Source: Bacteroidales bacterium (lineage in GTDB: Bacteria > Bacteroidota > Bacteroidia > Bacteroidales > Azobacteroidaceae). Taken from it: a stretch of 45,504 nucleotides of DNA. This document shows positions 5,272 through 29,902 of the stretch, piece after piece. Below the pieces are notes generated by a model that worked only from the letters and a program-made list of their open reading frames with translations, was not told where the DNA came from and did no database searches. Each line of letters begins with the position of its first letter. Within the stretch, counting starts at the first letter, position 1. The stretch lies in assembly GCA_031553415.1 (NCBI GenBank), contig JAVBLO010000087.1, positions 1 to 45,504 of the forward strand, in the 5' to 3' direction. A program made the translations under genes and the position numbers.

Positions 5272-5282
5272 GTCTTTTATTG

Positions 5283-10519: not shown

Positions 10520-10592
10520 GTCGGGGTACAAAGGTCTTGTAGTCGGAGTACAAAACATATGTACTCCGACTACAAGACCTTTGTACCCCGAC
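10520..10592. repeat. perfect palindrome: 32-bp arms (GTCGGGGTACAAAGGTCTTGTAGTCGGAGTAC) with a ~9-nt loop, at the 3' end of the transposase remnant
   Basis: Direct inspection: 10520-10551 is the exact reverse complement of 10561-10592. The listed ORF reads through it, which is probably artefactual. Confidence 0.85.
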
Positions 10593-10745
10593 TATAGAAA
10601 TTAAATGCTCTTAGCATCTGCTTCAAAAAGTAACTGATTCGGTTTTGTAAGACATAGAAATTATCAATTAACTTTGTAACCTGAATTTACTTTCCTGTGT
10701 CATATCTGTACAAACTAATTATTAACATTTTTATAAATACAGATT

Positions 10746-11135: not shown

Positions 11136-11150
11136 TCCTTTTCAAATGAA

Positions 11151-11714: not shown

Positions 11715-12079
11715 ATATAAAAGAGATAGATGAAGAAAAATTATTAAAAGGATTTTTGAAGGAAACTTGTCTTAAAGCCCCGGAAAATCTTTCTAAAAAT
11801 GTGATACAAATGATTGCGTTACAAGAAAAAGCTAAAGCGGGAGCCAAGCTACGGAGAGGACGACTGAAAAAAGAGGCTTTGCGGGGAGCCTGTTTCTTTT
11901 TATGTGTTTTTATTGTTGGTTTCCTTTTTCTGTTCTTTACTAAGGATGCATCATTCCGGATATCTCCTTCTCATGAACATGAGTCGTTATTCCTGATTCT
12001 ATTTGTTGTATCCGGAATTGCAGCCTCTTATTTTTTCCTGAAAGAACTTCTGAACCGTTTATTGCTAAGGAAACTATAA
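11711..12079 (+). CDS. putative anti-sigma factor (single-pass membrane protein)
   Basis: Start overlaps the sigma stop (ATGA). 122 aa with a cytoplasmic N-terminal part followed by TM segments, the classic ECF sigma / anti-sigma arrangement. Confidence 0.5.
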   Translation: MNIKEIDEEKLLKGFLKETCLKAPENLSKNVIQMIALQEKAKAGAKLRRGRLKKEALRGACFFLCVFIVGFLFLFFTKDASFRISPSHEHESLFLILFVVSGIAASYFFLKELLNRLLLRKL

Positions 12080-12100
12080 AAACTGCAAATACACTATAAT

Positions 12101-12193
12101 GGCACCCTTCACGCTACTAAGGAGGCGACGGCTTCGCCTCTAAGGAAGCGTGACCAACCTCCTTGAGGCTGGCCCTTCACTTCCTTGAAGCTC
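12101..12193. terminator. GC-rich nested-hairpin element between convergent genes (probable bidirectional terminator)
   Basis: Hairpins seen include GAGGCGA-cggct-TCGCCTC, CTTCACGCT...AGCGTGA and TAAGGAGG...CCTCCTT. Short internal direct repeats (CCCTTCAC x2, TAAGGAGG / TAAGGAAG). It lies between the anti-sigma stop (12079) and the hcp stop (12194-12196). Confidence 0.4.
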
Positions 12194-13822: not shown

Positions 13823-14041
13823 TTTAGATTGTAAACTTTATTCTTTACTATTTTCATTGCAAAAATAGGATGGGTTTACATTCTAATTTGTCACAAATGT
13901 TACATTGTGAAAATTATTTGTTTGTTATAAAGTATTTCGGCAATTAACGTTTTATCACGACATGGCTCTTTATATATTCATTCGCTTTTATCACCAACAC
14001 ATAAATGCCTATTGGAAAAGAAGATAAATCTGATATGATCT

Positions 14042-15106
14042 CTATTTGAGTTTCAAATCATTAAAAATATCTCTTGCTGCTGCAAAGTTATCATAAAGAT
14101 CCATTAAAGCATCGCCTGATGTAAGCGAAGATTTACCTAAAGTAAGGAAACCTTCGGGCATCGCAACGGAAAAGAAAAAGCGATCAGCATTGAATGAAAG
14201 CATGATATCGCGGTTGTATTTCTTTTTTAATTCTGTCATCCGGAGCATCATCGCCGGGGTAAGAATGTAGCGGGCAGTAATTTCATCGCTGGAATAAACG
14301 GCAAAATACCGTTCAAACTCTATATCTTCGAGTTTGACTAATTTATTACCATTCACATTTTTCAAACCCTGGATATTTTTGGCAAGATAATCAAGTTTGC
14401 TTTCCAAATGGTCGGGTAAAATAACCACAGTACCATTGATTTTCTTTTCCAATTGGGCATCTGCAAACATTCCACGGAAATCAGTTGCAATATTTTCCAC
14501 ACGTTTGGCAAATACTCCCTTGAAAAGAATTACTGCTATCTGAAACATGCCTGCTGTAGATGTTTGAGCCAGCCAGTTGCTTTTGGTTCCGCTTATGGAG
14601 ACGTCGCGGAAAGTCATTTTCCGGTTATTGTTTTCAAAAATAACTGTTCCGAAAGAATATCCTGAAGCGTATTCACGTTTCAATCCTCCGAAAAAGTTAC
14701 TTTGCATCATCAGTGACGTGGAGAAAGGAGCAGTAGTAAGATTACATTTGGCTTCGGGAAACATGGCCTGCATGATTCGCCGGATAGAAGTTTGCTCCGC
14801 ATCGGTGTATTTTTTATAAAAGTAACCCAATCCATATCCACCAAGGGTTATCAATATAAACAATGGGGCGATGATAATAAGCATTTTATACCTTTCCCAA
14901 AAAGAGGGATTGGGGTCTAAAGTATAAAAAAACGAAGTATCCCGGCTTGAATATATATAAACCTGCATTGCAATTAATCCAACAAAATAGAGTATTGCTC
15001 CGCCGTAGCAAAAAATCCGGGAAATCCTGATTTTTTTCTGGTTCTGTTCGGCTTTTTTCAATGTGGAATAAAGCTCTTGTTGCAGTTGCTCTATTTTTTC
15101 AGTCAT
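14042..15106 (-). CDS. LemA-associated membrane protein (DUF3137-like; two N-terminal TM helices)
   Basis: 354 aa. Starts 2 bp after the lemA stop. N-terminal coiled-coil plus two TM helices. The DUF3137 family assignment is from memory of typical LemA neighbours, not from a search. Confidence 0.45.
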   Translation of the reverse strand: MTEKIEQLQQELYSTLKKAEQNQKKIRISRIFCYGGAILYFVGLIAMQVYIYSSRDTSFFYTLDPNPSFWERYKMLIIIAPLFILITLGGYGLGYFYKKYTDAEQTSIRRIMQAMFPEAKCNLTTAPFSTSLMMQSNFFGGLKREYASGYSFGTVIFENNNRKMTFRDVSISGTKSNWLAQTSTAGMFQIAVILFKGVFAKRVENIATDFRGMFADAQLEKKINGTVVILPDHLESKLDYLAKNIQGLKNVNGNKLVKLEDIEFERYFAVYSSDEITARYILTPAMMLRMTELKKKYNRDIMLSFNADRFFFSVAMPEGFLTLGKSSLTSGDALMDLYDNFAAARDIFNDLKLK

Positions 15107-15108
15107 AG

Positions 15109-15702
15109 TTATCTATTGAACAGCGACTTGACATCAACATTAGCTTTTTCGGCTTCAGGAATGGTAATTAACTCATAAGGCTGATAATGCTTTGCGGAAG
15201 CAACAATAGAAGACGGAAACATTTGTACATAATTGTTAAAGTCCACTGCAGCAGCATTGAAAGTCCGCCGTGCTGCTTGCAACTGGTATTCCATATCTTC
15301 AATGGATTCTTCGAGACGGAGGAATTGGTCGTTGGCTTTCAGGTCAGGATAGTTTTCAACCGCTAATTTCACATTGGCAAGTGTCCGGGAAAGTTCAGAA
15401 CCTAATTGAATTTGTTCATGTTCATTTTTTGTTTGTAACATCTGGGAGCGCAATTCTGTAATTTTAACAAGTGTGGAGTTTTCATGTCCCATGTAGGTCT
15501 GCACTGCCGCCACCAAATTGGGAATCATGTCGTTCCGTTGTTTCAACATCACACAAATGCTGCTTTCAGTCTGTTTTACACGGTTGTTTTTAGCAATAAA
15601 TTTGTTGTAGGTAACGATAAACCAAAGTACGATAATAACGATTACCGCTGCGATAATAACTGTGCCTGTCATAAATAATATGTGTGTTATTTTGTTTGGC
15701 AC
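15109..15702 (-). CDS. lemA: LemA family protein
   Basis: 197 aa. N-terminal TM helix followed by the LemA-type sequence ...YNKFIAKNNRVKQTESSICVMLKQRNDMIPNLVAAVQTYMGHE... Confidence 0.8.
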   Translation of the reverse strand: MPNKITHILFMTGTVIIAAVIVIIVLWFIVTYNKFIAKNNRVKQTESSICVMLKQRNDMIPNLVAAVQTYMGHENSTLVKITELRSQMLQTKNEHEQIQLGSELSRTLANVKLAVENYPDLKANDQFLRLEESIEDMEYQLQAARRTFNAAAVDFNNYVQMFPSSIVASAKHYQPYELITIPEAEKANVDVKSLFNR

Positions 15703-17500: not shown

Positions 17501-19699
17501 TTATAAATCTTCTCGCTTCCATGTTTTCAGCCGTTCCAAGTGAGTAAAAAGAGTTGTATCTGAGCCTTCAAGATAAACAATAGCATTGGGGTCAATATCT
17601 AAAAAAGCATCGGGGTCAATTATTATTCTACCTGAGCCTTTTATATATAATTTACCTCCATCCATGATTTTCAGGGTACTTCCCTTTTTGATTCTTAATT
17701 CGGCATTGGGATTTAGTTCATAAATGCTGTTTTTTTCAATTATGAGAGAGCTTCCCCGTTTCACTTTGACAATAGAATTTGTTTCTTGTTTAAAGTAAGA
17801 ATTTTCCCTGCAGTGAAATGCGGTTGGGTTGATAAAATTTCCTTCATCGTTATGGGTATGCCTGTTAGGAGTTCCACCTTTATCAATCGACAAGGCAATT
17901 CCTTCATTGATAACAATATCCGGCCTGTTATCTTGTGTTATATCCGGCAAATAAATAGTTCCGCAATAACGGATATTATTATTTATTATCACATCATTGA
18001 AAGTAATTTTTATTTTGGCATTGCCTTCTGCATCATAATCCAGGATTTTAACGGAAATGCCATTCAGGACAAATGGATTCAACCTGAATTCTTTTTCGTT
18101 ATATATAGGAACATTTACCAGTCCGGGGTTTGAATCCATAGACAATTTTTGATTTTTTTTGAAAGTAATATCATGTCCTAAAAAATCATAAGTAAATTCA
18201 TTATCTTTCATCCTGACAAAGCATCCTTCATTTTTTTTGCCGGGACGAATGCTGTTATAATGTGTATCTAAAGAAATAATCCCGTTGGAATCAAAATCAG
18301 CACGGATAACTTCAGCCCTGCTTTGTCCGGCAATAGGATTCGGCTCCACCTCTTTGAAACTGTATAATTTATGTTTCCTCCTGAAACAAGGATCTATAAA
18401 TGAAAGCCCGAATTCATAATCATGGCTGCCTTCCGGATGCAGGCATTGTATTCCATTGGTAGTTCCTATATTTCCCCAAACGAGATGAGGTTTTGTTTTA
18501 TCATCTTGTATGCTTTCAATATAAGCCACTATCCCCCATGAGTGTTGAGGTATTTCATTTTTACAGCCATCATATAAAATAGAACTTTTATCAAAAATAG
18601 ATTTACCCTGATGGTTTTCCAACCATAAATAATGATTTTTAATCCCATTGCCGGGTATTTTTATCCTGATTATGTCGCCGGTCGTCATAAAATCCCTTAG
18701 AGTATATTCTCCGGAAGCATTTAAATCAGCTTCCTTTTTAATATCTGCATTTTCCCCATTGGCCTTAATACTATTAATCCAATCGAGATACCATTTTTCC
18801 CAACCTAATACACACAAAAACGGGGAGAAATTTAACGACATCATACCCCACCCCAGATTACCATAAAAATAATCACCTACGAGTTCATTGGCATAAGCAT
18901 AATGAGGACATTCAAAAATACTGTGTGCAATTTCATGGATGAATAAATGGAAAAAGTCTACGGAGGCCGAAGTCTGGGTAAATCCGCTTTGGTCGAAAAT
19001 ATAGCCGTTGAAGTCTATACCTGTTGTTCCATCCAATATGGCATATCCTCCATTGGAACCTCCCCAAGCGTCTATGTTATGTACAGGTTTTTGAATCATC
19101 TTATTGTGACTCCGGTATATGACAATAATGTAATCCGGTTTTTTATCAGGAGAATACAAACTGGCATCTTTTCTGTAAGAAGGCCTGTTTTCCCTCAGGT
19201 CGTATCTTGACCAATCAAAACCGGGATTTTCTTCTTTCAGCTTTTCGATTACCCTTCTGTTCAGTTGGCTCCAACTGCTGGCTCCACTTGCATCAATATT
19301 TATCCTTTTGGGATATACATCAGCAATCAACCTGAATTTTGAATGCGACATCTGGTAATAAAAGTATGATACATTTTTATCCTGATTTGCAAGAGGGCGT
19401 TCTGAAAAATCAGAAAAATCAGACAAAAAAGTGGATTTATCCTTTAATTTATCAGGAATAGCATCAGGCTCTTTACTCCAGCCTTGCATTTCAAAATTAT
19501 CGTATGGTTCACCGAATCCAGCGCAGATCACCAAAACTCTGAGGTCTCCTTTCGGAGTTAGAACATTTCCATATCCGGAATAAAATCCGGTTTTTCCCAC
19601 CTTTGAATCGGTATTTTGATTATAGTACGCATTCAATTGTTCTGTTTCAATGGTTAGGGCGGCAATTAATAATTGCCAGTAAAGGTTTAAGCTTTTCAT
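17501..19699 (-). CDS. large secreted protein with HExxH zinc-metallopeptidase motif
   Basis: 732 aa. Contains FIHEIAHSIFECPHY. The C-terminal third is rich in beta-helix-like repeats (IKKGSTLKIMDGGKLYIKGSGRIIID...). Confidence 0.5.
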   Translation of the reverse strand: MKSLNLYWQLLIAALTIETEQLNAYYNQNTDSKVGKTGFYSGYGNVLTPKGDLRVLVICAGFGEPYDNFEMQGWSKEPDAIPDKLKDKSTFLSDFSDFSERPLANQDKNVSYFYYQMSHSKFRLIADVYPKRINIDASGASSWSQLNRRVIEKLKEENPGFDWSRYDLRENRPSYRKDASLYSPDKKPDYIIVIYRSHNKMIQKPVHNIDAWGGSNGGYAILDGTTGIDFNGYIFDQSGFTQTSASVDFFHLFIHEIAHSIFECPHYAYANELVGDYFYGNLGWGMMSLNFSPFLCVLGWEKWYLDWINSIKANGENADIKKEADLNASGEYTLRDFMTTGDIIRIKIPGNGIKNHYLWLENHQGKSIFDKSSILYDGCKNEIPQHSWGIVAYIESIQDDKTKPHLVWGNIGTTNGIQCLHPEGSHDYEFGLSFIDPCFRRKHKLYSFKEVEPNPIAGQSRAEVIRADFDSNGIISLDTHYNSIRPGKKNEGCFVRMKDNEFTYDFLGHDITFKKNQKLSMDSNPGLVNVPIYNEKEFRLNPFVLNGISVKILDYDAEGNAKIKITFNDVIINNNIRYCGTIYLPDITQDNRPDIVINEGIALSIDKGGTPNRHTHNDEGNFINPTAFHCRENSYFKQETNSIVKVKRGSSLIIEKNSIYELNPNAELRIKKGSTLKIMDGGKLYIKGSGRIIIDPDAFLDIDPNAIVYLEGSDTTLFTHLERLKTWKREDL

Positions 19700-19837: not shown

Positions 19838-22800
19838 TTATTTCTTCAATGCTTTCATAATTCCTTCCAAACCTTCGTTGAATTGTGCTAATTGTGCGAC
19901 AATTTGTCCAACCTGGTTATTCTTATCAATACCAGCTAACTTGTTGTTTTTAAGGAATATTTCTTTGATTGTTTCCCAGCGTTTCCGGTCGGAATCGGTA
20001 AATAATCCGGCAATTTCCTTTATTTTCAGCAAGTTGGCTTCATTTTCGGAAGTCAGGGTTTGTGCTTCACTTTCGTAGTGGGTCATGATCAACTCATTGA
20101 TCTCGGTTATGTTCATTAATGGAACAATGAGGCTAACCATTTTATTCATATCGCGGTATGAGCCTTGCAATTTAAACGCTGGTTCGGTGCGATACGCTTC
20201 CTGCATGGCAGCGCTGGTTATGTATGTCTGGTTTACTTTCAATACGAAATTGCGAACCAATAACGCATTTTTAACTACAGCAATAAAATCATCTACATCC
20301 TGCTGGATATGGTTTCCTTCCAGGTCGGGAAAGTTTCCGCTGTTGGTTTCAATAAAGTCTACCAGATTGTAAAAATCATTGAAACTTTTGGAGGCAATTT
20401 TTTGTAAATACGGATTTTCTACAATTGCATTTTCCAATAAACTGAGTTTGAAAAGATTTTCCGAGCTGCCGATTACATCGCCCAGGTTATAAATATCAGC
20501 ACGGTTGGCCAACATGTCAGGAATCTGAAATTTTTCCCCGCTTTCGGTATATGGATTTCCTGCCATGATTACACAGAAACGTTTTCCCCGTAAATCGTAA
20601 GTTTTGCTTTCTCCTTCGAAAATGCCGTCCATTTTACGTTGTCCATCAGCTAAGGAAATAAATTTTTGCAGAAATTCAGCGCTGCAATGTTGTATATCGT
20701 CCAGATACAACATAACGTTATCGGCCATCTCGAATGCGAGGTTGATTTTCTTCAATTCTTCACGCGCACCTGAAGTTTTTGCTTCAGCAGGGTCGATAGA
20801 AGTAATGGAATGCCCAATAGTTGGTCCGTTGATTTTAACGAAATTCAATCCCATGGTTTTGGACAGGTATTCCATTAAAGTTGTTTTCCCATATCCCGGG
20901 GGAGAAACCAGCAACAACATTCCCATGCGGGCGGTACGTTTGTTTTCGCCTGCGGTTCCGAGTTGTTTGGAGAGATTGGCTCCAATCAACGGAAAATATA
21001 TTTCATTGATTAATTTGTTGCGGACAAAAGAAGTCAGCACACGCGGTTTTAATTCGTTCAACTTAAGCGTTTTCTTGTATTTTTCAACCAGGTTTTCTTT
21101 TACTTCGCTGAACTCGTTGAATTCAGGAACACTGACTTCTGAGAAATGTGATAACCGCTTGATAAACGAATGATAATCCAAAGTATAAACACCATTAACG
21201 ATAACTGCATGGTTTCCTTTCAGGCTTTTAATTTCGGTTTTATCCGGAGCTTTAAGAAGTTCATAAGTTTGTTCTCCGAATAGTAACAAACAGGTCGCTT
21301 CTTCTGCGTACTTCTTTTCTTCCGAATAGTTTTTGGACGCATCTAAGAATGACTGCATCCAGTTGGAAGCGAGATAGAACCGCTCTACCCAATCAAAAGA
21401 TTCATCTTGAATATCTTTTTCAAAATCATTTAAGAATCCGGTTTTCGTAGCATAAGCCAAAAACGCCAACCGGAGTTTTTCTGCCTGACCGCTTTTGGTA
21501 AAAGTTGGAGATACTGCAAACTCCCGGAATAAATAATCTGCAATTTGTTGCGAAGTAACATTTGAAAAAACCAATGTAGTATTCCACTGTTCGAACAGTG
21601 TTTGAATCCGTTCAATAACATAACGGAAATTTTCTGAGCTGGGGAATACTTTCAACACAGTGCTGGCAGCAATAATCAGTTTGTTGAGTTTTGCTTTTTC
21701 ATCTTCTTCCAAACTATTCCAGAAAAGTTGTGCAACAACACGGAGATGTGGATGGAAAGACAGCATATCCAAGTGCTGATACAACAAATCTAGTACTTCA
21801 TAAATGCGTAAAGCATCATAATCGTGCACTCCTTTCAGGTAAGATTCGGAGTAATTTTGTTCTGCTTTTCGGGTGATATATTCTTTCGGATTGAATTTTT
21901 TACTCGTTTGTTTGGCTAAAAATGTTTGGTAAGCAAGGTATTCGGCACGATAAACAACCTTGTTTTCCGAAAGAATTTCCTGTTCCCAGATGCACCTGTA
22001 ATGGTTGATTTTTTCATTATCCAGGAGTTGGTAAAAACTTGTTCCCGTCAGGTGGTAATATAATCGGTCGTTTTTCCTGACAACGGTCAAATCTAACGGC
22101 TGTTTGCTAACAGTGAATTTGTAAGTACCCAGACTGATGATTTGTTCTCCATCTACAAACAATTCCGTGCGGTCTTTCAATATGCGTAAAGCATCTTCCA
22201 ATGAAGTTTTAAGGCAGTTTTCGAGATTTTCAGCTTTCGAAACATCTCCCAATAATTTGAGTTCTTCAACTAATTTCCGGACTTTATCAATCATCAGGTC
22301 AGTTGAAAAGAAAGCTTGTATTTCTTCTTTGGTCTTGAATGATTGGGCTTTGTTTTCGATATTCTTCAACACCCGGAGCCCGATTTGTTCGAGCGAAGAA
22401 GTCCGGTGGTTGATTTGTTCCTGTAATTGCGCCTTTTTACCATCAAATGCTTTGGTAATTTCGTCACGTTTGTCTGCAATTTTTTCGACAAATTCGTTGA
22501 AATCGGCGAATTTACTTTCCAATTCTTCGACCAGAACACTTATTTTGGTAAAATATTCATCACATTTCCCAGGAGAAGTTGCCAGTTCCAGGTAATTAAC
22601 AATGCTTTGTTCCAACAAGGTAAGTTGTGCATGGAATTCAGCCACGGATTCCCCGGTTTTCAAAGAGTCGGTTTTCCTCTTTAACCGGGCGCGCACTTCA
22701 TTCAACGATGCGAATATCAGTGAAATTTTTTCGACAATGCGGGTAGCCTGGGTTTTATCTTCAATTTTCAGGCTGTTCAAGATATCTATTAAAAGCTCAA

Positions 22801-24670
22801 GTTCGGATGAAATCAGTTTGCAGTTTTCATCTATTTTATTGGCATCAATAACTTTGGTAACTGTTTCAATCTGTTCTTTTTCGATTGCAACTTTTTCTTC
22901 ATAAGGAACCAAAGCCTCATCTTTCAACAGAAACTCAACTGTTTTATCCGAAAGTTTTTCATTGGTTTCGGCCAGTTGTTTTTTAAGTTCCTCAATTTTC
23001 TCCGAATCAATATACTTTATATTGCCTTTCTCAATGACTTCGCCTTGTAACTTCCGGGTTTCGGCCAACAATTTTACCAGACTATCGAGATTATCATATC
23101 TATTATTCTTGTAACTGAATAATAAACTTTCAATCTTTTCGATTGTTTCATCAAGCTGTTGGGATGCATATTTTTTTTGTGTCTGTACTTTGGCAAACTC
23201 ATCGATAGCAGTTTCTGCAATGCTTTTTATGTGTTTCAGTGGTTCGGAGAGGCAATATGTTTCCTTATCTGCAATCCAGAAAAAAGCATCAATAGTATCG
23301 TTCGCTTTTTTGGCTATATCAACATAAAGTCCGTCGTAAGAATCTTCCTTATTGATTAATTGTATAATTTCGTGGCATTCAGCCATTGCCTTTACAATAT
23401 CTTTGTTTCCGATTTTATAGAGTTTATTATCCTTTTTTCCCGTATTTTCGGTAAACTGGCGTTGGTAAGGCGTTTGCCAGATTTGCACCTGGTGATACTT
23501 GGTTGCGTCTTGTTCGGTTTTAAAATAAATCAACCGTCCATCGGCATATAATGTAAAACCGCCACATATAATTGGTGTTTCCACTTGTTGTTTGATGATG
23601 TTGTATGACATCAACACGTATGTATGTGTATCGCCTTGATAGAAAAGGTAAAGGAAATCTTCTCCGTTTCCGGATAAAATCCGGCGCACGAATTCCATAT
23701 TATGTAAGTCACTTTCGAATATTTTATATTCTCCTGTTTGCAGGTAATAACCGTTGGGGAAAATGATTCCCTGATTATCAGGCAACAAAATTCCGGCATT
23801 CAACAACATGTGAATATTGACTACTTCCTTGGTGCGTGTATTGAAAATATATGAACGGAAATCTTCTTGGTAAGGCTTGATTTTAACTGCTAACAAATTG
23901 CCTAAATCGGCATAATAATATTCTGCATCATCTAATTGCTGGTCTTTATTCTCAACTGCTTCGGCATAAATTCCCTTTCCTGTCCTGGTATTGTCTTCAA
24001 TTTTGAATGTAATATCTCCGCCAACAGCCTCGATAAAAACTTTATTCATGATTGAAACATGCGGGTGAAGTCCGAGGCGGCGGTCTTCCAATGTGGTTTT
24101 ATTCCATTGGAACTCATGTTGGGATGGTTTGACTACTTCATGGATGCTCCGGTCGTCGATGTAAACCAGTTTGTTGTCTTTCATCAACCACTTGAAAGCT
24201 TTGGCGTCGGCAATGGTTTTTCCTGTCTGGAAAATCATATACAAGTAATTATCGGTTCTCCTGAAACGGGAGAAAATGGCATTCCGGTAATATTTGTAAA
24301 GATTGTTATAATCGTTTACAAAATCCGGGTTATTGATAAGATCTAATGGTTGAGGATTGAAATGGTTATCTTCAAATTTATAAATACTGAAAACATCGCT
24401 GAGCTGGATATCCGACCGCAGGCCAAAATGGACATTGTATGCAAAGATGCACAAATCGCCAATAACCATAATCCCCCTTGCCACACAATTGTTTTCGGTA
24501 GCAATGCGCTGGTTGGCTATCAGGGAAAAATCAACCGAACTGAAAACTTCTTTGCGCGATTCGTTCAGTTGGTTAAGGCGTTTATTAAGCTCGTCTTTTT
24601 GCGCTTGAAGGCGTTTTTTTATGATTTCGTAGGTGCCGGAATCGAGGGTTTCTATATTGGGTTGTTGCAT
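19838..24670 (-). CDS. giant (1610 aa) coiled-coil protein with C-terminal AAA+ (MoxR/dynein-type AAA_5) ATPase module; function unknown
   Basis: Walker A LLVSPPGYGKTTL and Walker B VMLYLDDIQH. VIMAGNPYTESGEKFQIPDMLANRAD matches the AAA_5 sensor region. About 700 aa of heptad-rich coiled-coil lie in the middle. The N-terminal ~450-aa domain is unrecognised. Confidence 0.8.
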   Translation of the reverse strand: MQQPNIETLDSGTYEIIKKRLQAQKDELNKRLNQLNESRKEVFSSVDFSLIANQRIATENNCVARGIMVIGDLCIFAYNVHFGLRSDIQLSDVFSIYKFEDNHFNPQPLDLINNPDFVNDYNNLYKYYRNAIFSRFRRTDNYLYMIFQTGKTIADAKAFKWLMKDNKLVYIDDRSIHEVVKPSQHEFQWNKTTLEDRRLGLHPHVSIMNKVFIEAVGGDITFKIEDNTRTGKGIYAEAVENKDQQLDDAEYYYADLGNLLAVKIKPYQEDFRSYIFNTRTKEVVNIHMLLNAGILLPDNQGIIFPNGYYLQTGEYKIFESDLHNMEFVRRILSGNGEDFLYLFYQGDTHTYVLMSYNIIKQQVETPIICGGFTLYADGRLIYFKTEQDATKYHQVQIWQTPYQRQFTENTGKKDNKLYKIGNKDIVKAMAECHEIIQLINKEDSYDGLYVDIAKKANDTIDAFFWIADKETYCLSEPLKHIKSIAETAIDEFAKVQTQKKYASQQLDETIEKIESLLFSYKNNRYDNLDSLVKLLAETRKLQGEVIEKGNIKYIDSEKIEELKKQLAETNEKLSDKTVEFLLKDEALVPYEEKVAIEKEQIETVTKVIDANKIDENCKLISSELELLIDILNSLKIEDKTQATRIVEKISLIFASLNEVRARLKRKTDSLKTGESVAEFHAQLTLLEQSIVNYLELATSPGKCDEYFTKISVLVEELESKFADFNEFVEKIADKRDEITKAFDGKKAQLQEQINHRTSSLEQIGLRVLKNIENKAQSFKTKEEIQAFFSTDLMIDKVRKLVEELKLLGDVSKAENLENCLKTSLEDALRILKDRTELFVDGEQIISLGTYKFTVSKQPLDLTVVRKNDRLYYHLTGTSFYQLLDNEKINHYRCIWEQEILSENKVVYRAEYLAYQTFLAKQTSKKFNPKEYITRKAEQNYSESYLKGVHDYDALRIYEVLDLLYQHLDMLSFHPHLRVVAQLFWNSLEEDEKAKLNKLIIAASTVLKVFPSSENFRYVIERIQTLFEQWNTTLVFSNVTSQQIADYLFREFAVSPTFTKSGQAEKLRLAFLAYATKTGFLNDFEKDIQDESFDWVERFYLASNWMQSFLDASKNYSEEKKYAEEATCLLLFGEQTYELLKAPDKTEIKSLKGNHAVIVNGVYTLDYHSFIKRLSHFSEVSVPEFNEFSEVKENLVEKYKKTLKLNELKPRVLTSFVRNKLINEIYFPLIGANLSKQLGTAGENKRTARMGMLLLVSPPGYGKTTLMEYLSKTMGLNFVKINGPTIGHSITSIDPAEAKTSGAREELKKINLAFEMADNVMLYLDDIQHCSAEFLQKFISLADGQRKMDGIFEGESKTYDLRGKRFCVIMAGNPYTESGEKFQIPDMLANRADIYNLGDVIGSSENLFKLSLLENAIVENPYLQKIASKSFNDFYNLVDFIETNSGNFPDLEGNHIQQDVDDFIAVVKNALLVRNFVLKVNQTYITSAAMQEAYRTEPAFKLQGSYRDMNKMVSLIVPLMNITEINELIMTHYESEAQTLTSENEANLLKIKEIAGLFTDSDRKRWETIKEIFLKNNKLAGIDKNNQVGQIVAQLAQFNEGLEGIMKALKK

Positions 24671-24777: not shown

Positions 24778-26859
24778 TCAACTCAAATGTTTATTTGATA
24801 CTCCCAACGATTTTGCCATTCCCATTAAGTTATTCAACAGACCCTTGTCTTCATCCCCTGCCTGTTGATGCATTTTGATAATCAAACTGGAAATGCTCAG
24901 GTTTTTAATATCTTCCGATGAAATACCTAACCGGTCGGCCATATCACGGATTTTATCGAATAAACCTCCGTTTCCATTGGACAACAATGCTTTTTTGATT
25001 TCTTGCATATTCTCACTTTCATTAACCAAACGGTCGAATCCTTTGGCATTGGAAATTTGTTTGACGATGTTTTCGAAGAACATGGTTTCGCCTCCGACAA
25101 TGTCGATATTGGCCGATTTCAATGCTTCCGACAACACATGTGCCTGTGCTTCGGCAATGTCTTTCTGGATATTGATTTGCGCCAGTTCGATATCTTTTTC
25201 TTTCTGAAGCTGGAGTTTGAATTCTTCGTGTTGTTTTCCAACACCGTCGAATTTCTTCATGGCATCTGCTTTCTTTTCAATACCGGATGCATCGGCTAAG
25301 GCTTTTTCCTTGATTCCGGTAGCTTCGGCTAAGGCTTTTTCGCGGGTTACATCAGCTTCTGCAAAACCTTCTTTCTTTTTCGCTTCTGCTTTCGCTTCAA
25401 TTCCTGTGGCTTCTGCTTTGGCTTTCTTTTCAATAACAGTTGCTTCTACAGTTCCCTGACGCTCCATAGCATTGGCTTTGGCATGCATTACTTCAGCTTC
25501 GGAAAGTCCGATAGTTGCTTCTTCACGGGCAGTTGCTTCAGCTAAAATTTTACGCGCTTCCGCTTGTTTGGCTGATGCTTCTTTTTTCGCTTCTGCATCG
25601 ATTTGCAATTGTTTGGCTTTTTCCTGGGCTGCCTGTGTGTCAGCTTCTGCAGCACGCACAGTTTGAATCAATCTTTCTTCTGCTGTTTGGCTGGCACTGG
25701 TGATACCTACTTTTTTCTGGCGTTCCACTTCGCGGAATGCTTCAATATCCTTGATGCTTTGTTGTTCTTCCACAACACCTTTTTCCAATTGTACCCTTTC
25801 ACGGATAACATCCTGGATATTTTTCTTTTCCACTTCGATGACTTTATCCCTTTCGATTTGGGCTAAAGTAACAATGCGTTCACGTTCGGTTTGTTCCAAA
25901 GCGCGGTCTTTTTCCACCCTTTCGGTTTCGACAGCAGCCGTACGGATTTTATTTTTTTCCGCAATAATGATCTGGCGTAGTTTATTTTCTTCCTGAACTT
26001 GCAGGCTTTCTTCCGTTGAGATTCTTACAGTTTCTGCTTTAAGACGTTCTTCTTCACGGACTTTTTTGATTTCAGCTTCTTCGCGAGCTTTGGCATTGTC
26101 AATTTCACGTTTTTGTTTTTCTTCTTTTTCTGCTAACTGGCGTTCCATTTCGAGAATGGCTTCGCGCGCTTCCACATTTTGCTTTTTGATAGCTTTTTCT
26201 TCTTCCCTGCGGATATAGTTCGCATTGATATTTTGAGTCGCTGTCAGTTCTGTAATTTTTTTAATACCCTCAGAATCGAGGATATTATCCGGACTAAGGA
26301 ATTGAAGTTCTGTCTGCTCCAGATAGTCAATGGCGCAGTCGTCCAGGATATAACCATTCAAATCAGTACCTATAATGTTAAGGATTTCATCACGGAATTC
26401 CCTACGGGCTTCATATAGTTCGATAAATTGGAATTTCTTCCCTACGGTTTTTAATGCTTCGGAAAACTTGGATTCAAAAATAGTTCTGAGGGTTACAATG
26501 TCGCTTGCCCTTTCGCATCCTATGGTCTGAGCTACATTGATAACATCATTGACATTTTTATTTACCCGCACAAAAAAGGCAACTTTGATATCTGCACGGA
26601 TATTGTCTTTACAAATCAATCCGTCGTGTTGCATTCTTTCAATATCTAATTTTTTAACTGAAATATCCATGATTTCCATTTTGTGGAAAATAGGGATGAC
26701 GTACATACCTTTATTAAATGCGACAGCAGTGCCGCCTACACCTGTACGTACGATAGCTTTCCCTTGTGGAATTTTTTTGTAGAATGTAGCCAGCATGGCT
26801 AAGAACACCAGCAGGACAAACAGAATAGCGCCTGCTGTAATAGCAATAATTTCTCCCAT
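24778..26859 (-). CDS. flotillin-like SPFH/band-7 protein (YqiK/FloT family)
   Basis: 693 aa. N-terminal TM helix plus SPFH region (AIVRTGVGGTAVAFNKGMYVIPIFHKMEIMDIS...) and a long EA-rich coiled-coil tail (KAEAEAKKKEGFAEADVTREKALAEATGIKEKALADASGIEKKADA). Confidence 0.82.
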   Translation of the reverse strand: MGEIIAITAGAILFVLLVFLAMLATFYKKIPQGKAIVRTGVGGTAVAFNKGMYVIPIFHKMEIMDISVKKLDIERMQHDGLICKDNIRADIKVAFFVRVNKNVNDVINVAQTIGCERASDIVTLRTIFESKFSEALKTVGKKFQFIELYEARREFRDEILNIIGTDLNGYILDDCAIDYLEQTELQFLSPDNILDSEGIKKITELTATQNINANYIRREEEKAIKKQNVEAREAILEMERQLAEKEEKQKREIDNAKAREEAEIKKVREEERLKAETVRISTEESLQVQEENKLRQIIIAEKNKIRTAAVETERVEKDRALEQTERERIVTLAQIERDKVIEVEKKNIQDVIRERVQLEKGVVEEQQSIKDIEAFREVERQKKVGITSASQTAEERLIQTVRAAEADTQAAQEKAKQLQIDAEAKKEASAKQAEARKILAEATAREEATIGLSEAEVMHAKANAMERQGTVEATVIEKKAKAEATGIEAKAEAKKKEGFAEADVTREKALAEATGIKEKALADASGIEKKADAMKKFDGVGKQHEEFKLQLQKEKDIELAQINIQKDIAEAQAHVLSEALKSANIDIVGGETMFFENIVKQISNAKGFDRLVNESENMQEIKKALLSNGNGGLFDKIRDMADRLGISSEDIKNLSISSLIIKMHQQAGDEDKGLLNNLMGMAKSLGVSNKHLS

Positions 26860-26864: not shown

Positions 26865-27566
26865 TTAAATAGTAAATTCTTTTGTTACGTAATATGTCTT
26901 TTTATCCTCACTTTCGTCAACGACCATTACTTGGTCGCCGTATCTTATTTCTTCTCCGGTCATACTAATGACATTCAGTTTCATCGGATTCTTTTCAATG
27001 AAAAATTCGGCAAAACCAATCTTCTTGTCTTTGATGGTAGACAACATCTTTCCTGAGCGTCCGAGAAAATCAATTCCCTCCTCGCCCTGATATCCTATTT
27101 CCTTAAAAAATCTTGCCATAGGTGTGGTCGCAAATTTAGTTAAAATTATTCCGATACCAAGCAATGGGATCAGAATCAATATAGATTTCCAGCCCCAGGT
27201 ATCTACAGCTATCATTTGAGTGGTTATCAGGGTTCCTATCCATGTGAAAAATTTCAACGTAGAAAATATCAGCATGAAAGGGACTTTCCCGACATTCAGG
27301 AATTCCAGGAATTTTACGAATGGTCCGTGCACTTTTTCTGTGGGGACATCATGGTCGGGATCCGGATCATGGTTTACATCGTGAACGTGTCCGTCTAACC
27401 CTGCATCAACATTTGCATCCACATCGAAATCAGCACCCAGGTCAATATCTCCGAATCCGATGCCGCCAATCAAAACGAATAGCCAATACAGAACAATAAC
27501 TGCCATTATCCCAGTCATAATGGCATTGGGAAGGGGATGAATTAAGTGGTGCCAGAGTTCTGCCAT
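26865..27566 (-). CDS. NfeD/YqiJ-like membrane protein (flotillin partner)
   Basis: 233 aa, 5 bp upstream of the flotillin gene. Acidic DxD-rich region, several TM helices and a C-terminal soluble beta-rich domain. This resembles the yqiJ-yqiK pairing. Confidence 0.55.
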   Translation of the reverse strand: MAELWHHLIHPLPNAIMTGIMAVIVLYWLFVLIGGIGFGDIDLGADFDVDANVDAGLDGHVHDVNHDPDPDHDVPTEKVHGPFVKFLEFLNVGKVPFMLIFSTLKFFTWIGTLITTQMIAVDTWGWKSILILIPLLGIGIILTKFATTPMARFFKEIGYQGEEGIDFLGRSGKMLSTIKDKKIGFAEFFIEKNPMKLNVISMTGEEIRYGDQVMVVDESEDKKTYYVTKEFTI

Positions 27567-27616: not shown

Positions 27617-27937
27617 TCATTTATAAATATTCCTCAACCACGGAATTTTTGAAAAAAACCGATACAGTTTTGTTTCAAACTTTGTTGGTTGCAAATCTTC
27701 TTCCTGAAGGAAACCTCCATCTTTCAAAATCCGGACGGCCCGCTCCACATCATCTTCCATAACCTGCAGTTTCACTCCTCCAATCGCTGTAGATATAAAA
27801 GGGTGAACCTGCGAAGTTAATTCATCCTGAACAAAACAATATATTCCTTCCGATTCCAATAAGCTTTGCGCAATACCTATTTCATGCGAAAAAACAAATG
27901 TTTTGACGGTTACAAGTTTGTTTCCTTTTTCTGACAT
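27617..27937 (-). CDS. DUF2007-like small protein
   Basis: 106 aa. LVTVKTFVFSHEIGIAQSLLESEGIYCFVQDE matches the DUF2007 pattern. Confidence 0.5.
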   Translation of the reverse strand: MSEKGNKLVTVKTFVFSHEIGIAQSLLESEGIYCFVQDELTSQVHPFISTAIGGVKLQVMEDDVERAVRILKDGGFLQEEDLQPTKFETKLYRFFSKIPWLRNIYK

Positions 27938-28041: not shown

Positions 28042-28743
28042 TTAATCTATTCCAAGTTTACGTTTAATTTCATCCAGTTCCTGATTTACTTTTCCTGCGT
28101 CGTCCCCGATGGCTTTGTTGATTTCATCATCAATAGAAGCGGTCTTTTTTGCCAAATCGCCATAAGCCTGTGCTAAAGCTTCTTCTTCTTCAACTTTCTC
28201 TTTCATACGCTCCAACATGCTGATAGTGCTGTTACTATCGATTTGCGCCATCTGTTTATTGACTTGTTTAGTTGCCTTACTAACCCGGATTCTGGATTTT
28301 AAAGTCTTCAGTTCATTTTCCCATTTGTTTATGTTGAACTTCATAACTTCCACATTCTTCTGGATTTCATCGGCAGCAGTTTCGTGAGTGGTTTGTTGTT
28401 CACCAAGTTCTTTGGCCTCCACGAGCAAACGCTCTTTGATAGCCAATGCTTCGCGGGCTAATTTTTCGGCCTGTGCCATATCTAATTCGCCTTTCTGAGC
28501 TTTGGTTAATAACAATACTGCTTTCCCGCTATAATCTTCAGCACTTGCTATTTTTTTATTTTTGTCATTTTTAGTGCGGATAGCCATTGCCTTTACACGC
28601 GCCAGCGATTCAATGGCACTATCTAAATCTTCACGCATTTCGCGGATTCCCTGTTCCGTCATCCGGATAGGATCTTCCATGTTATCTACGATTGAATGAA
28701 TTTCGGCCTGGCCGATCCTCATGAGTCTTTTGAAAATATTCAT
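28042..28743 (-). CDS. pspA: PspA/IM30 family protein (ESCRT-III superfamily)
   Basis: 233 aa. MNIFKRLMRIGQAEIHSIVDNMEDPIRMTEQGIREMREDL... aligns with E. coli PspA [27 protein letters not shown]... It is predicted fully alpha-helical coiled-coil. Confidence 0.85.
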   Translation of the reverse strand: MNIFKRLMRIGQAEIHSIVDNMEDPIRMTEQGIREMREDLDSAIESLARVKAMAIRTKNDKNKKIASAEDYSGKAVLLLTKAQKGELDMAQAEKLAREALAIKERLLVEAKELGEQQTTHETAADEIQKNVEVMKFNINKWENELKTLKSRIRVSKATKQVNKQMAQIDSNSTISMLERMKEKVEEEEALAQAYGDLAKKTASIDDEINKAIGDDAGKVNQELDEIKRKLGID

Positions 28744-28745: not shown

Positions 28746-29138
28746 TTATTGTTTTTTCGAAAATTCGATAATTTGTTCGTAATATTCACTTAGCAACAGA
28801 CCTAAAGAGTTAAATGCCCCTTCGAGTTCGTTCATGTCCAGGTTTTCCACTTGCATGGTATAACGGAAAATCACTTTGGTGCCTGTCTCATCCAGCACAA
28901 AAGCGCCGTGTATCATATCCCTGTTTTTCTTCAAAAGTGATTTCAATATTTCTTTGTCATCGCTTTTCAAGGTGAAGATAAACTGTTCCAATACCACAAT
29001 GGGAGGAGCCACACCAATAATCAGGTTCTTAATTCCGTCTGTTTCGTTTTCGATACAGAGGATCCCTTCTTTCTCGTCCTGATAAGAAATTGTATAACCC
29101 AAACGGGAAACAAATGATTCAATTTTTTTGAAATACAT
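28746..29138 (-). CDS. YbjN-like small cytoplasmic protein (putative chaperone/sensor-like), co-transcribed with pspA
   Basis: 130 aa. Its stop lies 2 bp before the pspA start. Fold and family assignment are tentative. Confidence 0.4.
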   Translation of the reverse strand: MYFKKIESFVSRLGYTISYQDEKEGILCIENETDGIKNLIIGVAPPIVVLEQFIFTLKSDDKEILKSLLKKNRDMIHGAFVLDETGTKVIFRYTMQVENLDMNELEGAFNSLGLLLSEYYEQIIEFSKKQ

Positions 29139-29206: not shown

Positions 29207-29902
29207 TTGCAAATAAAAATAGCACTTTTTATGAGTCAAATCGGGAAAAATATACAAAAAATAAGAAAAGTAAAGGGATTGAGCCAACAGGCTTTTGCTG
29301 AACTATTTCAGCTCACCAGAGGCAATATATCCTCATACGAGGAACTGCGGGCGGAACCCAAGCTTTCATCTACTGTTGAAATTGCTAATTATTTTAGCAT
29401 TCCGGTCGGCGATTTTATTTCAAAAGATTTATCTGTAAATGAATTACTCCATTACAATACAGGATTGGTTTTGGAAACCGAAGAGCTGAAACGCAATCAC
29501 AGGTTGATCCATATACCTTATATTTCTGTATACAATCTCCCTGAATTTATTGCTAAATATAATGATGAAAATTTTATCCAAAGCCTGCCTCATATTATTA
29601 TTCCCAACAATTCTGAATTTCAATTAATTGCTATTGAAGTGAGCAATTCTGAAAATTTTCCTCTGGGCTTCGACTACAAAAACGGAGACATTTTGTTTTA
29701 TGAAAAGGTTGTAAAAGAAAATATACACCGTTTAAAAGACAAACTTGGAATAAAAATAGATGCTTCGGGCATCAAAGCCGGTATTTTTGAAATACAAGAA
29801 CAGGAAATATTCCTTGCGTTGAATGAATTGGTAAAATATCCTTTTGACATTCACTCCGATTCGGAATATTGGATATTAAGATCTGCTTATATACAATATT
29901 AA
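29207..29902 (+). CDS. XRE-family HTH transcriptional regulator with C-terminal LexA/S24-like domain, divergent from the psp array
   Basis: Cro/C1-type HTH IGKNIQKIRKVKGLSQQAFAELFQLTRGNISSYE. The likely true start is MSQIG at about 29231. C-terminal beta-rich domain. Confidence 0.65.
   Translation: MQIKIALFMSQIGKNIQKIRKVKGLSQQAFAELFQLTRGNISSYEELRAEPKLSSTVEIANYFSIPVGDFISKDLSVNELLHYNTGLVLETEELKRNHRLIHIPYISVYNLPEFIAKYNDENFIQSLPHIIIPNNSEFQLIAIEVSNSENFPLGFDYKNGDILFYEKVVKENIHRLKDKLGIKIDASGIKAGIFEIQEQEIFLALNELVKYPFDIHSDSEYWILRSAYIQY

What the first reader, a model, noticed from the sequence alone, without database searches (positions are those of the whole stretch)
19838..24670. 1610-aa protein: unknown ~450-aa N-terminal domain + ~700-aa coiled-coil + C-terminal AAA_5 ATPase, an unusual bacterial architecture
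The P-loop (SPPGYGKTT), Walker B (LYLDDIQ) and NPYTESGEKFQIPDMLANRAD sensor region all cluster in the last ~400 residues. So this is not an SMC/Rad50-type split ATPase, despite the enormous coiled-coil that precedes it (long heptad-rich stretches such as ...LESLLFSYKNNRYDNLDSLVKLLAETRKLQGEVIEKGNIKYIDSEKIEELKKQLAETNEKLSDK...). A single MoxR/dynein-like AAA module at the end of a >100-nm predicted coiled-coil rod, with a globular N-terminal head of unknown fold, is reminiscent of a mechanochemical tether or ruler rather than an enzyme. I cannot assign it to a known defence (BREX PglY/BrxC, Druantia and others) or repair family.
Basis: seen in the sequence. Interest (0 to 1): 0.65.

Follow-up and report, generated by a model that had tools for sequence, protein, structure and literature searches.

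The report
Flotillin-operon giant AAA+ ATPase (DUF3686 family)
The 1610-residue protein is a typical member of a widespread but experimentally unstudied family of bacterial ATPases, always encoded right after a membrane-scaffold (flotillin) gene; this operon is already in the literature, so the protein is a good candidate for a membrane-scaffold remodelling motor but not a new kind of protein.

Summary
The ORF (19838..24670, minus strand, 1610 aa) is intact, and the ATPase motifs sit together in the last ~370 residues as reported.

**Not "unknown".** The N-terminal domain is Pfam DUF3686 (E 5e-167), which AlphaFold2 predicts to be a beta-propeller.

**Not a ~700-aa rod.** The helical part is about 420 aa (416-835), broken into 13 helices of at most 58 residues. 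After it come a small beta domain and a compact all-alpha domain (908-1130), then the AAA+ module.

**Not unusual.** The DUF3686 + DUF7902 + AAA architecture holds down to 28% identity, across 691 clusters at 50% identity and at least six phyla.

**Conserved context.** In 61 of 64 related loci with enough upstream DNA, the gene directly follows YqiJ(NfeD-like) -> flotillin on the same strand. About half of the loci, all Bacteroidota, also carry an upstream CesT/Tir-PspA pair and a divergent HTH regulator, as this window does. Ravi et al. 2024 (PMC11237479) describe exactly this operon, including a "Betapropeller+Coiled-coil+AAA-ATPase".

**Interpretation.** The database name "DNA repair ATPase" has no support from the gene context. 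I found no sign of a defence role. The most likely function, inferred and not shown, is ATP-driven remodelling of flotillin/PspA membrane scaffolds.

**Verdict.** Already known as a family and an operon; biochemically uncharacterised.

The parts
19838..24670 (-). Complete 1610-aa ORF (stop codon included): beta-propeller + segmented helical arm + middle domains + C-terminal AAA+ ATPase. It is the last gene of the operon.
   Evidence: ORF list and translation. Pfam DUF3686, DUF7902, AAA and AAA_5. No hydrophobic segment reaches a 19-residue Kyte-Doolittle mean of 1.6, so it is predicted soluble.
24542..24640 (-). N-terminal amphipathic helix, aa 11-43, ahead of the propeller.
   Evidence: AF2 DSSP H11-43, pLDDT 84-95. 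Heptad a/d hydrophobic occupancy 0.67 against 0.12 at other positions.
23279..24592 (-). Pfam DUF3686 domain, aa 27-464. The beta-propeller core is aa 49-399 (nt 23474-24526).
   Evidence: Pfam E 4.6e-167, 556 bits, full profile 1-448. AF2 predicts about 28 beta strands with pLDDT mostly 80-90. Foldseek against PDB returns only generic WD40-like or 7-bladed propellers, E >= 1.7e-6 and identity <= 11%.
22166..23425 (-). Segmented alpha-helical arm, aa 416-835 (13 helices of 10-58 aa). It contains Pfam DUF7902 at aa 585-668 (nt 22667-22918).
   Evidence: AF2 DSSP, Pfam DUF7902 E 4.5e-24, heptad statistics.
22025..22141 (-). Small beta-hairpin domain, aa 844-882.
   Evidence: Both overlapping AF2 models predict it independently.
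21281..21949 (-). Compact all-alpha domain, aa 908-1130. It is the least conserved region, with 20% mean identity to the query across the family.
20960..21265 (-). Beta element plus two long helices, aa 1136-1237, leading into the ATPase. Includes the invariant FVRN.L motif.
   Evidence: AF2. Invariant F1215, N1218 and L1220. This stretch aligns with the pre-P-loop helix of the classical AAA proteins Rix7 and p97.
20471..20953 (-). AAA+ core, aa 1240-1400. Walker A SPPGYGKTT (nt 20879-20905). Walker B MLYLDDIQH with an invariant DD (nt 20687-20713). Sensor-1 Asn and candidate Arg finger in MAGNPYTESGEKFQIPDMLANRADIYNLG (nt 20480-20566).
   Evidence: Pfam AAA 34.7 bits and AAA_5 31.6 bits. Motif coordinates verified. 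It is the most conserved region, with 66% mean identity in an alignment whose overall identity to the query is 27-62%.
19841..20470 (-). Lid and C-terminal helical region, aa 1401-1610, with the conserved YRTEP.FKLQGSYR.MNK motif (aa 1493-1510).
   Evidence: AF2 helices. Invariant R1494, P1497, F1499, Q1502, G1503, S1504, Y1505, R1506 and M1508. Longer homologues add 117-198 aa after this region.
24778..26859 (-). Flotillin (YqiK/FloT-type SPFH protein), 693 aa, with an N-terminal membrane anchor, immediately upstream (107-nt gap).
   Evidence: hhalign of the family profile against E. coli YqiK: probability 100%, E 4e-41, 388 columns. TM segment aa 1-31. Found upstream on the same strand in 61 of 64 related loci. 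Pfam Band_7 misses it.
26865..27566 (-). YqiJ/YuaF-type (NfeD-like) membrane protein, 233 aa.
   Evidence: Pfam YqiJ_N E 4e-7. BLASTP against E. coli YqiJ E 5e-5. Found in 60 of 64 loci. TM segments.
27617..27937 (-). DUF2007 small protein, 106 aa. This is a lineage-specific insertion in the operon, not a conserved part.
   Evidence: Pfam DUF2007 E 7e-9. Found in 1 of 80 loci, and there outside the operon.
28042..28743 (-). PspA/IM30 (ESCRT-III superfamily) protein, 233 aa.
   Evidence: Pfam PspA_IM30 E 1.2e-43. Upstream in 32 of 63 loci, all Bacteroidota.
28746..29138 (-). CesT/Tir-like chaperone, 130 aa, the first gene of the operon.
   Evidence: Pfam CesT_Tir_1 E 7.6e-52. Found in 31 of 63 loci.
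29207..29902 (+). Divergently transcribed XRE-type HTH regulator with a C-terminal domain, 231 aa.
   Evidence: Pfam HTH_19 and HTH_3. Conserved in divergent orientation in 32 of 63 loci. Listed as 'cHTH+Protease' in the published Dokdonia operon.

Best explanation
**What it is (shown).** The gene encodes a soluble giant AAA+ ATPase of the DUF3686/DUF7902 family. Databases call it "DNA repair ATPase". It is the terminal gene of a conserved membrane-scaffold operon. The core is YqiJ(NfeD-like) -> flotillin -> ATPase. In Bacteroidota, as in this window, the core is preceded by CesT/Tir -> PspA and a divergent HTH regulator.

**How it most likely works (inferred).** The highly conserved C-terminal AAA+ modules assemble into a ring, as AAA+ proteins generally do. 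That would project several N-terminal arms, each made of a segmented helical bundle tipped by a beta-propeller. The propeller and arm would bind the cytoplasmic flotillin assembly, and PspA polymers where PspA is present. ATP hydrolysis would then remodel, disassemble or recycle these membrane scaffolds during envelope stress. This is the same pairing of a scaffold with an ATPase seen in Vps4/ESCRT-III and in FtsH/HflK-HflC.

Ring formation, the binding partners and the remodelling step are all untested.
For: **Identity and architecture**
- Pfam DUF3686 (E 4.6e-167), DUF7902, AAA and AAA_5.
- The same three domains occur in members at only 28-40% identity.
- AF2 predicts the propeller, the helical arm and the middle domains.

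**Active-site conservation**
- Walker A, Walker B (DD), sensor-1 N1372 and R1390 are invariant in a 25-member alignment at 27-62% identity.
- The AAA core is the most conserved region, at 66% mean identity. That argues for a working enzyme.

**Context**
- Flotillin lies upstream on the same strand in 61 of 64 loci with more than 3.2 kb of upstream DNA, and YqiJ in 60 of 64.
- PspA, CesT and HTH lie upstream in 32, 31 and 32 of 63 loci.
- Median flotillin-to-ATPase gap is about 120 nt.
- No gene family recurs downstream in more than 4 loci, so this is the last gene of the operon.
- These loci come from at least six phyla.

**Partner identity and location**
- Flotillin identity is proven by hhalign against E. 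coli YqiK, E 4e-41.
- The ATPase has no predicted TM segment, whereas flotillin and YqiJ are membrane-anchored.

**Literature**
- Ravi et al. 2024 describe this exact operon and propose a role in sub-membrane complex dynamics.
- A 2025 review states that no Vps4-like regulator of PspA is known in bacteria.
Against: - There is no experimental datum for any member; four literature searches found none.
- Gene linkage shows functional association, not the direction of action. The ATPase could be a client or a regulator rather than a remodeller of flotillin.
- The AAA clade is unresolved, and no aromatic pore-loop motif is evident between beta2 and alpha2 (my reading). A threading mechanism is therefore uncertain.
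- Walker B is DD rather than the usual DE.
- The AF2 model of the AAA core has low confidence (pLDDT 40-80), and no oligomer or complex could be modelled.
- Three of 64 loci lack flotillin.
- E. coli and other bacteria run yqiJK without this ATPase, so it is an accessory.
Confidence: 0.5

Rival explanations
1. Flotillin acts as the platform and the ATPase works on other substrates. The flotillin/NfeD microdomain recruits or cages the ATPase, as HflK/C does for FtsH. The ATPase then extracts, unfolds or assembles other membrane-associated proteins, with the propeller binding those clients.
For: The linkage to flotillin and YqiJ fits this reading just as well. The best Foldseek hits of the C-terminal model are the FtsH family (Ycf2-FtsHi, FtsH) and Lon, at weak E values of 8.5e-4 to 1e-2. 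That SPFH proteins repeatedly pair with AAA+ machines (HflK/C-FtsH, prohibitin-m-AAA) is established knowledge, cited.
Against: There is no protease domain and no other conserved client gene in the neighbourhood. The Foldseek hits are weak and rest on a low-pLDDT core.
Confidence: 0.2
2. A dedicated PspA (bacterial ESCRT-III) disassembly factor, functionally analogous to Vps4, with flotillin only marking the site of action.
For: It is co-operonic with PspA and a CesT/Tir chaperone in this window and in 32 of 63 loci. Reviews note that bacteria lack a known Vps4-like regulator. Vps4 structures appear among the weak Foldseek hits.
Against: PspA is absent from the operon in every non-Bacteroidota locus examined, while flotillin is present in 95% of loci. 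No MIT domain is detected. There is no specific sequence similarity to Vps4 beyond the P-loop.
Confidence: 0.15
3. A DNA repair ATPase, as the database name says.
For: Only the Pfam and NCBI label "ATPase involved in DNA repair / DNA repair ATPase". There are marginal RuvB and Rad17 P-loop matches far below their cut-offs.
Against: No nuclease, helicase or DNA-binding domain was detected. All conserved neighbours are membrane or envelope-stress proteins. The RuvB hits cover only about 45 residues around the P-loop, at 22 bits against a cut-off of 282. I infer, without having tested it, that the name comes from coiled-coil similarity to SbcC/Rad50-type entries.
Confidence: 0.03
4. An anti-phage or conflict system in which the ATPase senses infection and triggers membrane effects.
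For: Large NTPases with propellers occur in conflict systems (general knowledge). PspA is a "phage shock" protein. There is a marginal PADLOC hit to mad8, E 0.0011, over the P-loop region.
Against: No PADLOC hit for any neighbour. There is no effector nuclease, protease or toxin in the conserved set. The gene order is stable across phyla, with no recurrent defence-related or mobile-element family downstream.
Confidence: 0.05
5. A passive mechanochemical tether or molecular ruler built on a >100-nm coiled-coil rod.
For: There are heptad-patterned helices and large, distinct terminal domains.
Against: The predicted helices are at most 58 residues long and are interrupted 12 times. Half of the proposed "rod" is beta or globular alpha domains. 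The helical arm is among the less conserved regions while the ATPase core is the most conserved, which points to enzymatic rather than spacer function.
Confidence: 0.05

Closest known systems
"Betapropeller+Coiled-coil+AAA-ATPase" of the CesT/Tir-PspA-YqiJ/YuaF-flotillin operon (Ravi et al., mSystems 2024, PMC11237479; example Dokdonia donghaensis, PspA ANH61663.1)
   Same: Same domain order in the protein. Same gene order and orientation in the operon, including the divergent cHTH regulator (searches compared).
   Different: Nothing essential differs. The window adds a small DUF2007 gene between pspA and yqiJ. The published description is purely computational and gives no Pfam family name, structure model or mechanism for the ATPase.
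Pfam DUF3686 (PF12458) / DUF7902 (PF25472) proteins, annotated by NCBI as "DNA repair ATPase"
   Same: Full-length matches to both profiles. 63-84% identity to annotated proteins from Dysgonomonas, Tannerella, Bacteroides, Myroides and Empedobacter.
   Different: The name implies a function for which neither the sequence nor the context gives support.
FtsH within HflK/HflC SPFH cages (and prohibitin with the m-AAA protease)
   Same: An SPFH-family scaffold is genetically and functionally coupled to an AAA+ machine at the inner membrane. FtsH-family chains are the top, though weak, Foldseek hits for the C-terminal model.
   Different: No protease domain and no TM anchor. The SPFH partner is a flotillin (YqiK type), not HflK/C. 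hhalign against E. coli FtsH aligns only 35 residues around the P-loop.
Vps4/CdvC acting on ESCRT-III (Snf7/CdvB); PspA belongs to the ESCRT-III superfamily
   Same: An AAA+ ATPase is encoded beside an ESCRT-III-superfamily polymer-forming protein.
   Different: No MIT domain. The linkage to PspA is limited to Bacteroidota. The protein is four times larger and has a different N-terminal recognition module, a propeller.
MoxR-family AAA+ (RavA, CbbQ, NorQ) and the dynein/midasin AAA_5 modules
   Same: The Pfam AAA_5 profile matches nearly end to end (2-127 of 139) above its cut-off. NorQ and CbbQ appear among the weak structural hits. By my reading from memory, the NP....G....P..L..R arrangement after sensor-1 resembles AAA_5 proteins.
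   Different: No VWA-domain partner gene was found in the Pfam scans of the window's neighbouring genes. hhalign against E. coli RavA gives only 18% probability. Pfam classical AAA scores slightly higher than AAA_5.

Membership tests
Pfam DUF3686/DUF7902 giant AAA+ family ("DNA repair ATPase") | Full-length match to PF12458 at the N-terminus, above the gathering score | tested here: met
   556.5 bits against a cut-off of 25; profile 1-448 of 448 matched at aa 27-464.
Pfam DUF3686/DUF7902 giant AAA+ family ("DNA repair ATPase") | DUF7902 in the helical region and a single AAA module near the C-terminus, in that order | tested here: met
   DUF7902 at aa 585-668 (84.9 bits against 26). AAA and AAA_5 at aa 1252-1377. 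Five distant members show the same order.
CesT/Tir-PspA-YqiJ-flotillin-AAA+ operon (Ravi et al. 2024) | [quoted passage not shown] | tested here: met
   All five are present on the minus strand between 19838 and 29138. The order is identical in 31-32 related Bacteroidota loci and in the published Dokdonia example.
AAA+ ATPase superfamily | Walker A GxxGxGK[ST], Walker B hhhhD[DE], a sensor-1 polar residue after beta4, and a conserved arginine after sensor-1 | tested here: met
   The motifs are PPGYGKTT, MLYLDDIQH (DD, not DE), N1372 and R1390, all invariant in alignment A3. Pfam AAA and AAA_5 both score above their cut-offs.
AAA+ ATPase superfamily | ATP hydrolysis and ring (usually hexamer) assembly | not testable with these tools
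   Needs purified protein, or multimer structure prediction, which was not available here.
MoxR / AAA_5 subfamily | Best match to AAA_5/MoxR profiles rather than to classical AAA | tested here: inconclusive
MoxR / AAA_5 subfamily | A neighbouring VWA-domain partner gene | tested here: not met
   No VWA domain appears in the Pfam scans of the 20 flanking ORFs scanned. No gene family recurs downstream of the ATPase, or between flotillin and the ATPase, in more than 4 of the related loci.
Vps4/CdvC-type ESCRT-III ATPase | N-terminal MIT domain plus a classical AAA module with a Vps4 C-terminal oligomerisation element | tested here: not met
   No MIT or Vps4_C Pfam hit at E <= 1. The N-terminus is a beta-propeller.
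SMC/Rad50/SbcC split ABC ATPases | Walker A at the N-terminus and Walker B/signature motif at the C-terminus, separated by an antiparallel coiled coil | tested here: not met
   Walker A (aa 1256-1264) and Walker B (aa 1320-1328) are about 60 residues apart. There are no SMC, Rad50 or SbcC family hits.
Known anti-phage defence systems (PADLOC-DB 2.0) | A significant match of the protein or its neighbours to a defence-system model | tested here: not met
   There is only one marginal hit, mad8 at E 0.0011 and 16.5 bits, over the P-loop. The flotillin, the 732-aa protein and the 196-aa protein give nothing.

The most novel reading that the evidence does not exclude
This family is the missing ATP-driven disassembly and recycling machine for bacterial flotillin domes, and for PspA/ESCRT-III polymers in Bacteroidota. 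It would be a functional counterpart of Vps4 that evolved independently. A ring of divergent AAA+ modules would carry propeller-tipped helical arms that grip the scaffold's cytoplasmic surface.
Probability: 0.3. Interest if true: 0.7.

Novelty: already known. Interest (0 to 1): 0.35.

Why it matters
Bacterial flotillins and PspA form large, dynamic membrane scaffolds. No energy-consuming factor that assembles or dismantles them is known, and a 2025 review says a Vps4-like ATPase appears to be absent from bacteria. This family is tightly linked to flotillin and NfeD genes in many phyla. It is therefore the obvious candidate and can be tested directly in culturable Flavobacteriia and Sphingobacteriia.

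The value of this finding is limited. It is not a discovery, because the operon and the protein's architecture are already published.

What this analysis adds:
- The database name "DNA repair ATPase" is unsupported.
- Pfam Band_7 fails to detect the partner flotillin.
- The "coiled coil" is a segmented arm, followed by two further domains that had not been described.

Tried and rejected
- **PADLOC scan** of the ATPase and three neighbours gave nothing significant, so I rejected a defence-system assignment.
- **Sequence searches of PDB**, with the single sequence and with a family profile, gave only P-loop-level hits: Rix7, p97, midasin.
- **Foldseek, N-terminal model** against PDB returned generic propellers. 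Very low-TM whole-chain matches to beta-propeller + alpha-solenoid coat proteins (IFT-A, Nup, clathrin, Vps18; TM about 0.1) were too weak to use.
- **hhalign of the AAA profile** against E. coli RavA and FtsH was inconclusive.
- **Sigma-70 promoter and terminator scan** of 16.5-30 kb found no more sites than chance. It is also the wrong promoter model for Bacteroidota, so I made no transcription-unit claim from it.
- **The downstream 732-aa (HExxH) and 196-aa ORFs** were tested as possible operon members. They occur in 0 of 80 related loci, so I excluded them.
- **A search for any conserved gene** downstream, or between flotillin and the ATPase, found no family recurring in more than 4 loci.
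- **Literature searches** for DUF3686 and PF12458 returned 0 papers. Searches combining flotillin, NfeD/YqiJ and AAA found no experimental study of this ATPase.
- **Cluster look-ups** gave no source names for the window's own proteins.
- **Flotillin C-terminal tail.** I tried to show that it is specific to ATPase-linked flotillins, using BLASTP against YqiK. The result was inconclusive, so this remains only a lead.
Full report
**1. The observation**

The ORF at 19838..24670 (minus strand) is intact and encodes 1610 aa.
- Walker A SPPGYGKTT, aa 1256-1264.
- Walker B MLYLDDIQH, aa 1320-1328.
- MAGNPYTESGEKFQIPDMLANRADIYNLG, aa 1369-1397.

Pfam AAA (34.7 bits) and AAA_5 (31.6 bits) both pass their cut-offs over aa 1252-1377. 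Walker A and Walker B are about 60 residues apart, so this is an ordinary unsplit P-loop module, not an SMC/Rad50 arrangement.

The ORF is not a fusion artefact. Homologues of 1600-2036 aa keep the same three Pfam domains down to 28% identity.

**2.

The "unknown ~450-aa N-terminal domain" is Pfam DUF3686. It matches end to end (aa 27-464, E 4.6e-167).

I ran AlphaFold2 on aa 1-900 with a 62-sequence alignment (mean pLDDT 81). It predicts:
- A helix at aa 11-43.
- A beta-propeller at aa 49-399, with about 28 strands.
- A helical region at aa 416-835.

Foldseek against PDB returns only generic WD40-like propellers, with E no better than 1.7e-6 and identity of 11% or less.

The helical region has 351 helical residues in 13 helices of 10-58 aa, separated by short loops, and it includes Pfam DUF7902 (aa 585-668). 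The helices are heptad-patterned.

The second model covers aa 840-1610 (mean pLDDT 75.5). It shows that the rest of the supposed coiled coil is something else:
- A small beta domain, aa 844-882. Both models predict it.
- A compact all-alpha domain, aa 908-1130, pLDDT mostly >90.
- A beta element and two long helices, aa 1136-1237.
- The AAA core, aa 1240-1400, modelled with low confidence.
- A lid and a C-terminal helical region that carries a strongly conserved YRTEP.FKLQGSYR.MNK motif.

So the ">100-nm rod" is not supported. I could not access model coordinates, so whether the arm folds back on itself is inferred from the pattern of long helices and short loops, not measured.

**3. Conservation**

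In a 25-member alignment at 27-62% identity to the query, the AAA core is by far the most conserved part (66% mean identity). The 908-1130 domain is the least conserved (20%). The propeller is at 39% and the arm at 31%.

S1256-T1264, D1324, D1325, Q1327, H1328, N1372 and R1390 are invariant. This pattern fits an active enzyme whose catalytic ring is constrained while its peripheral domains co-evolve with partners.

Walker B is DD rather than DE. No aromatic pore-loop motif is obvious between beta2 and alpha2; that is my reading of the alignment.

**4. Distribution**

- The word-indexed search found 3665 homologues at E <= 1e-5 among the 8000 candidates it scored. The named ones are mostly called "DNA repair ATPase".
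- The exhaustive search with aa 1-470 found 691 clusters at 50% identity.
- The 80 best loci come from Bacteroidota, Planctomycetota, Verrucomicrobiota, Desulfobacterota, Kiritimatiellota and Clostridia. One distant member is from Acidobacteriota.

The architecture is therefore common, not unusual.

**5. Context, the decisive evidence**

On the minus strand of the window the order is:
- CesT_Tir_1 (28746..29138)
- PspA/IM30 (28042..28743)
- DUF2007 (27617..27937)
- YqiJ_N protein (26865..27566)
- a 693-aa protein (24778..26859)
- the ATPase

A divergent XRE-HTH gene lies at 29207..29902.

The 693-aa protein gets no Pfam Band_7 hit. Its family profile nonetheless aligns with E. coli flotillin YqiK at 100% probability, E 4e-41, over 388 columns including the SPFH domain. 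It has an N-terminal TM anchor.

I called ORFs in the 80 related loci and searched them with the window's proteins:
- Of 64 loci with more than 3.2 kb upstream, 61 have flotillin upstream on the same strand and 60 have YqiJ.
- Of 63 loci with more than 6.5 kb upstream, 32 have PspA, 31 have CesT and 32 have the divergent HTH. All of these are Bacteroidota.

Other points from the same analysis:
- No gene family recurs downstream in more than 4 loci.
- The window's 732-aa HExxH protein and 196-aa ORF occur in 0 of 80 loci, so the ATPase ends the operon.
- The ATPase has no predicted TM segment.

**6. Prior knowledge**

Ravi et al. [quoted passage not shown] They add that abbreviated flotillin-YqiJ-ATPase operons are more widely distributed.

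[quoted passage not shown] It is gene-for-gene the window's operon.

I found no experimental work on the ATPase. A 2025 review still states that a Vps4-like ATPase appears absent from bacteria and that the roles of the PspA partners are undetermined.

**7. How it most likely works**

*Shown:* a soluble, catalytically conserved AAA+ protein whose gene is almost always linked to a membrane-anchored flotillin and its NfeD-like partner, and in one phylum also to PspA and a chaperone.

*Inferred:*
- The AAA modules form a ring.
- The propeller-tipped arms bind the cytoplasmic face of the flotillin assembly and, where present, PspA polymers.
- ATP hydrolysis remodels or recycles these scaffolds during envelope stress.

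Flotillin (95% of loci) is a better candidate partner than PspA (about 50%).

Rivals:
- Flotillin merely provides a platform for action on other clients, as HflK/C does for FtsH.
- A PspA-specific Vps4 analogue.
- DNA repair, supported by the name only.
- Defence, with no support.
- A passive tether or ruler, whose rod premise fails.

**8. AAA+ clade**

This is unresolved.
- Pfam scores classical AAA and AAA_5 about equally.
- The family profile aligns only the P-loop half, mainly to classical AAA proteins, with midasin also in the list.
- hhalign against RavA gives 18% probability. Against FtsH it gives 91%, but over only 35 residues. Neither discriminates.

The usual VWA partner of MoxR proteins is not found next to the gene.

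**9. Verdict**

The sequence features are real. The finding is a typical member of a known family in a published operon, so it is already known at the comparative-genomics level. It is uncharacterised biochemically and mislabelled in databases. It is interesting as an experimental target, not as a discovery.

Caveats:
- The AF2 alignments were shallow in diversity (at least 60% identity).
- No multimer modelling was possible.
- The locus sample is the best-scoring 80 and is rich in Bacteroidota.

Noticed in passing
window 24778..26859 (-): The operon's flotillin (693 aa) is invisible to Pfam Band_7: no hit at E <= 0.1, and only 1 of 26 family members hits. Yet it is clearly homologous to E. 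coli YqiK (hhalign E 4e-41). Compared with YqiK (553 aa) it carries about 100 extra C-terminal residues with motifs conserved across phyla (SEDIKNLSI..LL.KL). This tail is a possible docking site for the ATPase, but that was not tested.
   Followed up: partly
window 27617..27937 (-): A small DUF2007 gene (106 aa) is inserted between pspA and yqiJ. It is absent from that position in all 80 related loci, so it is a lineage-specific addition to the operon.
   Followed up: partly
window 29207..29902 (+): A divergent XRE-type HTH regulator with a ~150-aa C-terminal domain, listed as 'cHTH+Protease' in the published Dokdonia context. It is conserved in the same divergent position in 32 of 63 loci, so it is the likely regulator of the operon. 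Its C-terminal domain got no Pfam hit here.
   Followed up: partly
window 17501..19699 (-): A 732-aa protein with a hydrophobic N-terminal stretch that may be a signal peptide (no predictor was run), and a HEIAHSIFECPH (HExxH zincin-type) motif. It has no Pfam, NCBIfam or PADLOC hit. It is not conserved next to the ATPase (0 of 80 loci). It may be a novel metalloprotease.
   Followed up: no
window 14042..15702 (-): A LemA (197 aa) + DUF3137 (354 aa) membrane-protein pair lies about 4 kb downstream of the ATPase gene. LemA also gives weak PspA_IM30 and Vps5 matches. This is another envelope-associated pair, but it is not linked to the ATPase in other genomes.
   Followed up: no
window 10016..10597 (+): A 193-aa ORF matches only the C-terminal part of a DDE_Tnp_1_6 transposase, so it is probably a transposase remnant. 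It lies between an RND-efflux-size gene cluster (1969..9519) and an ECF sigma-factor gene (11151..11714).
   Followed up: no
L004 (Dysgonomonas capnocytophagoides) 9971..14818; L068 (Rubripirellula MAG) 9917..15232: In these two loci the ATPase reading frame is split into two ORFs. This may be a frameshift, a sequencing error or a pseudogene. Every other locus examined carries a single ORF or runs off the end of its contig.
   Followed up: no
P0126, P0133, P0143, P0151, P0188, P0205 (homologues of 1751-1814 aa): Longer family members carry an extra 117-198 aa after the C-terminus of the window protein. The nature of this extension was not examined.
   Followed up: no
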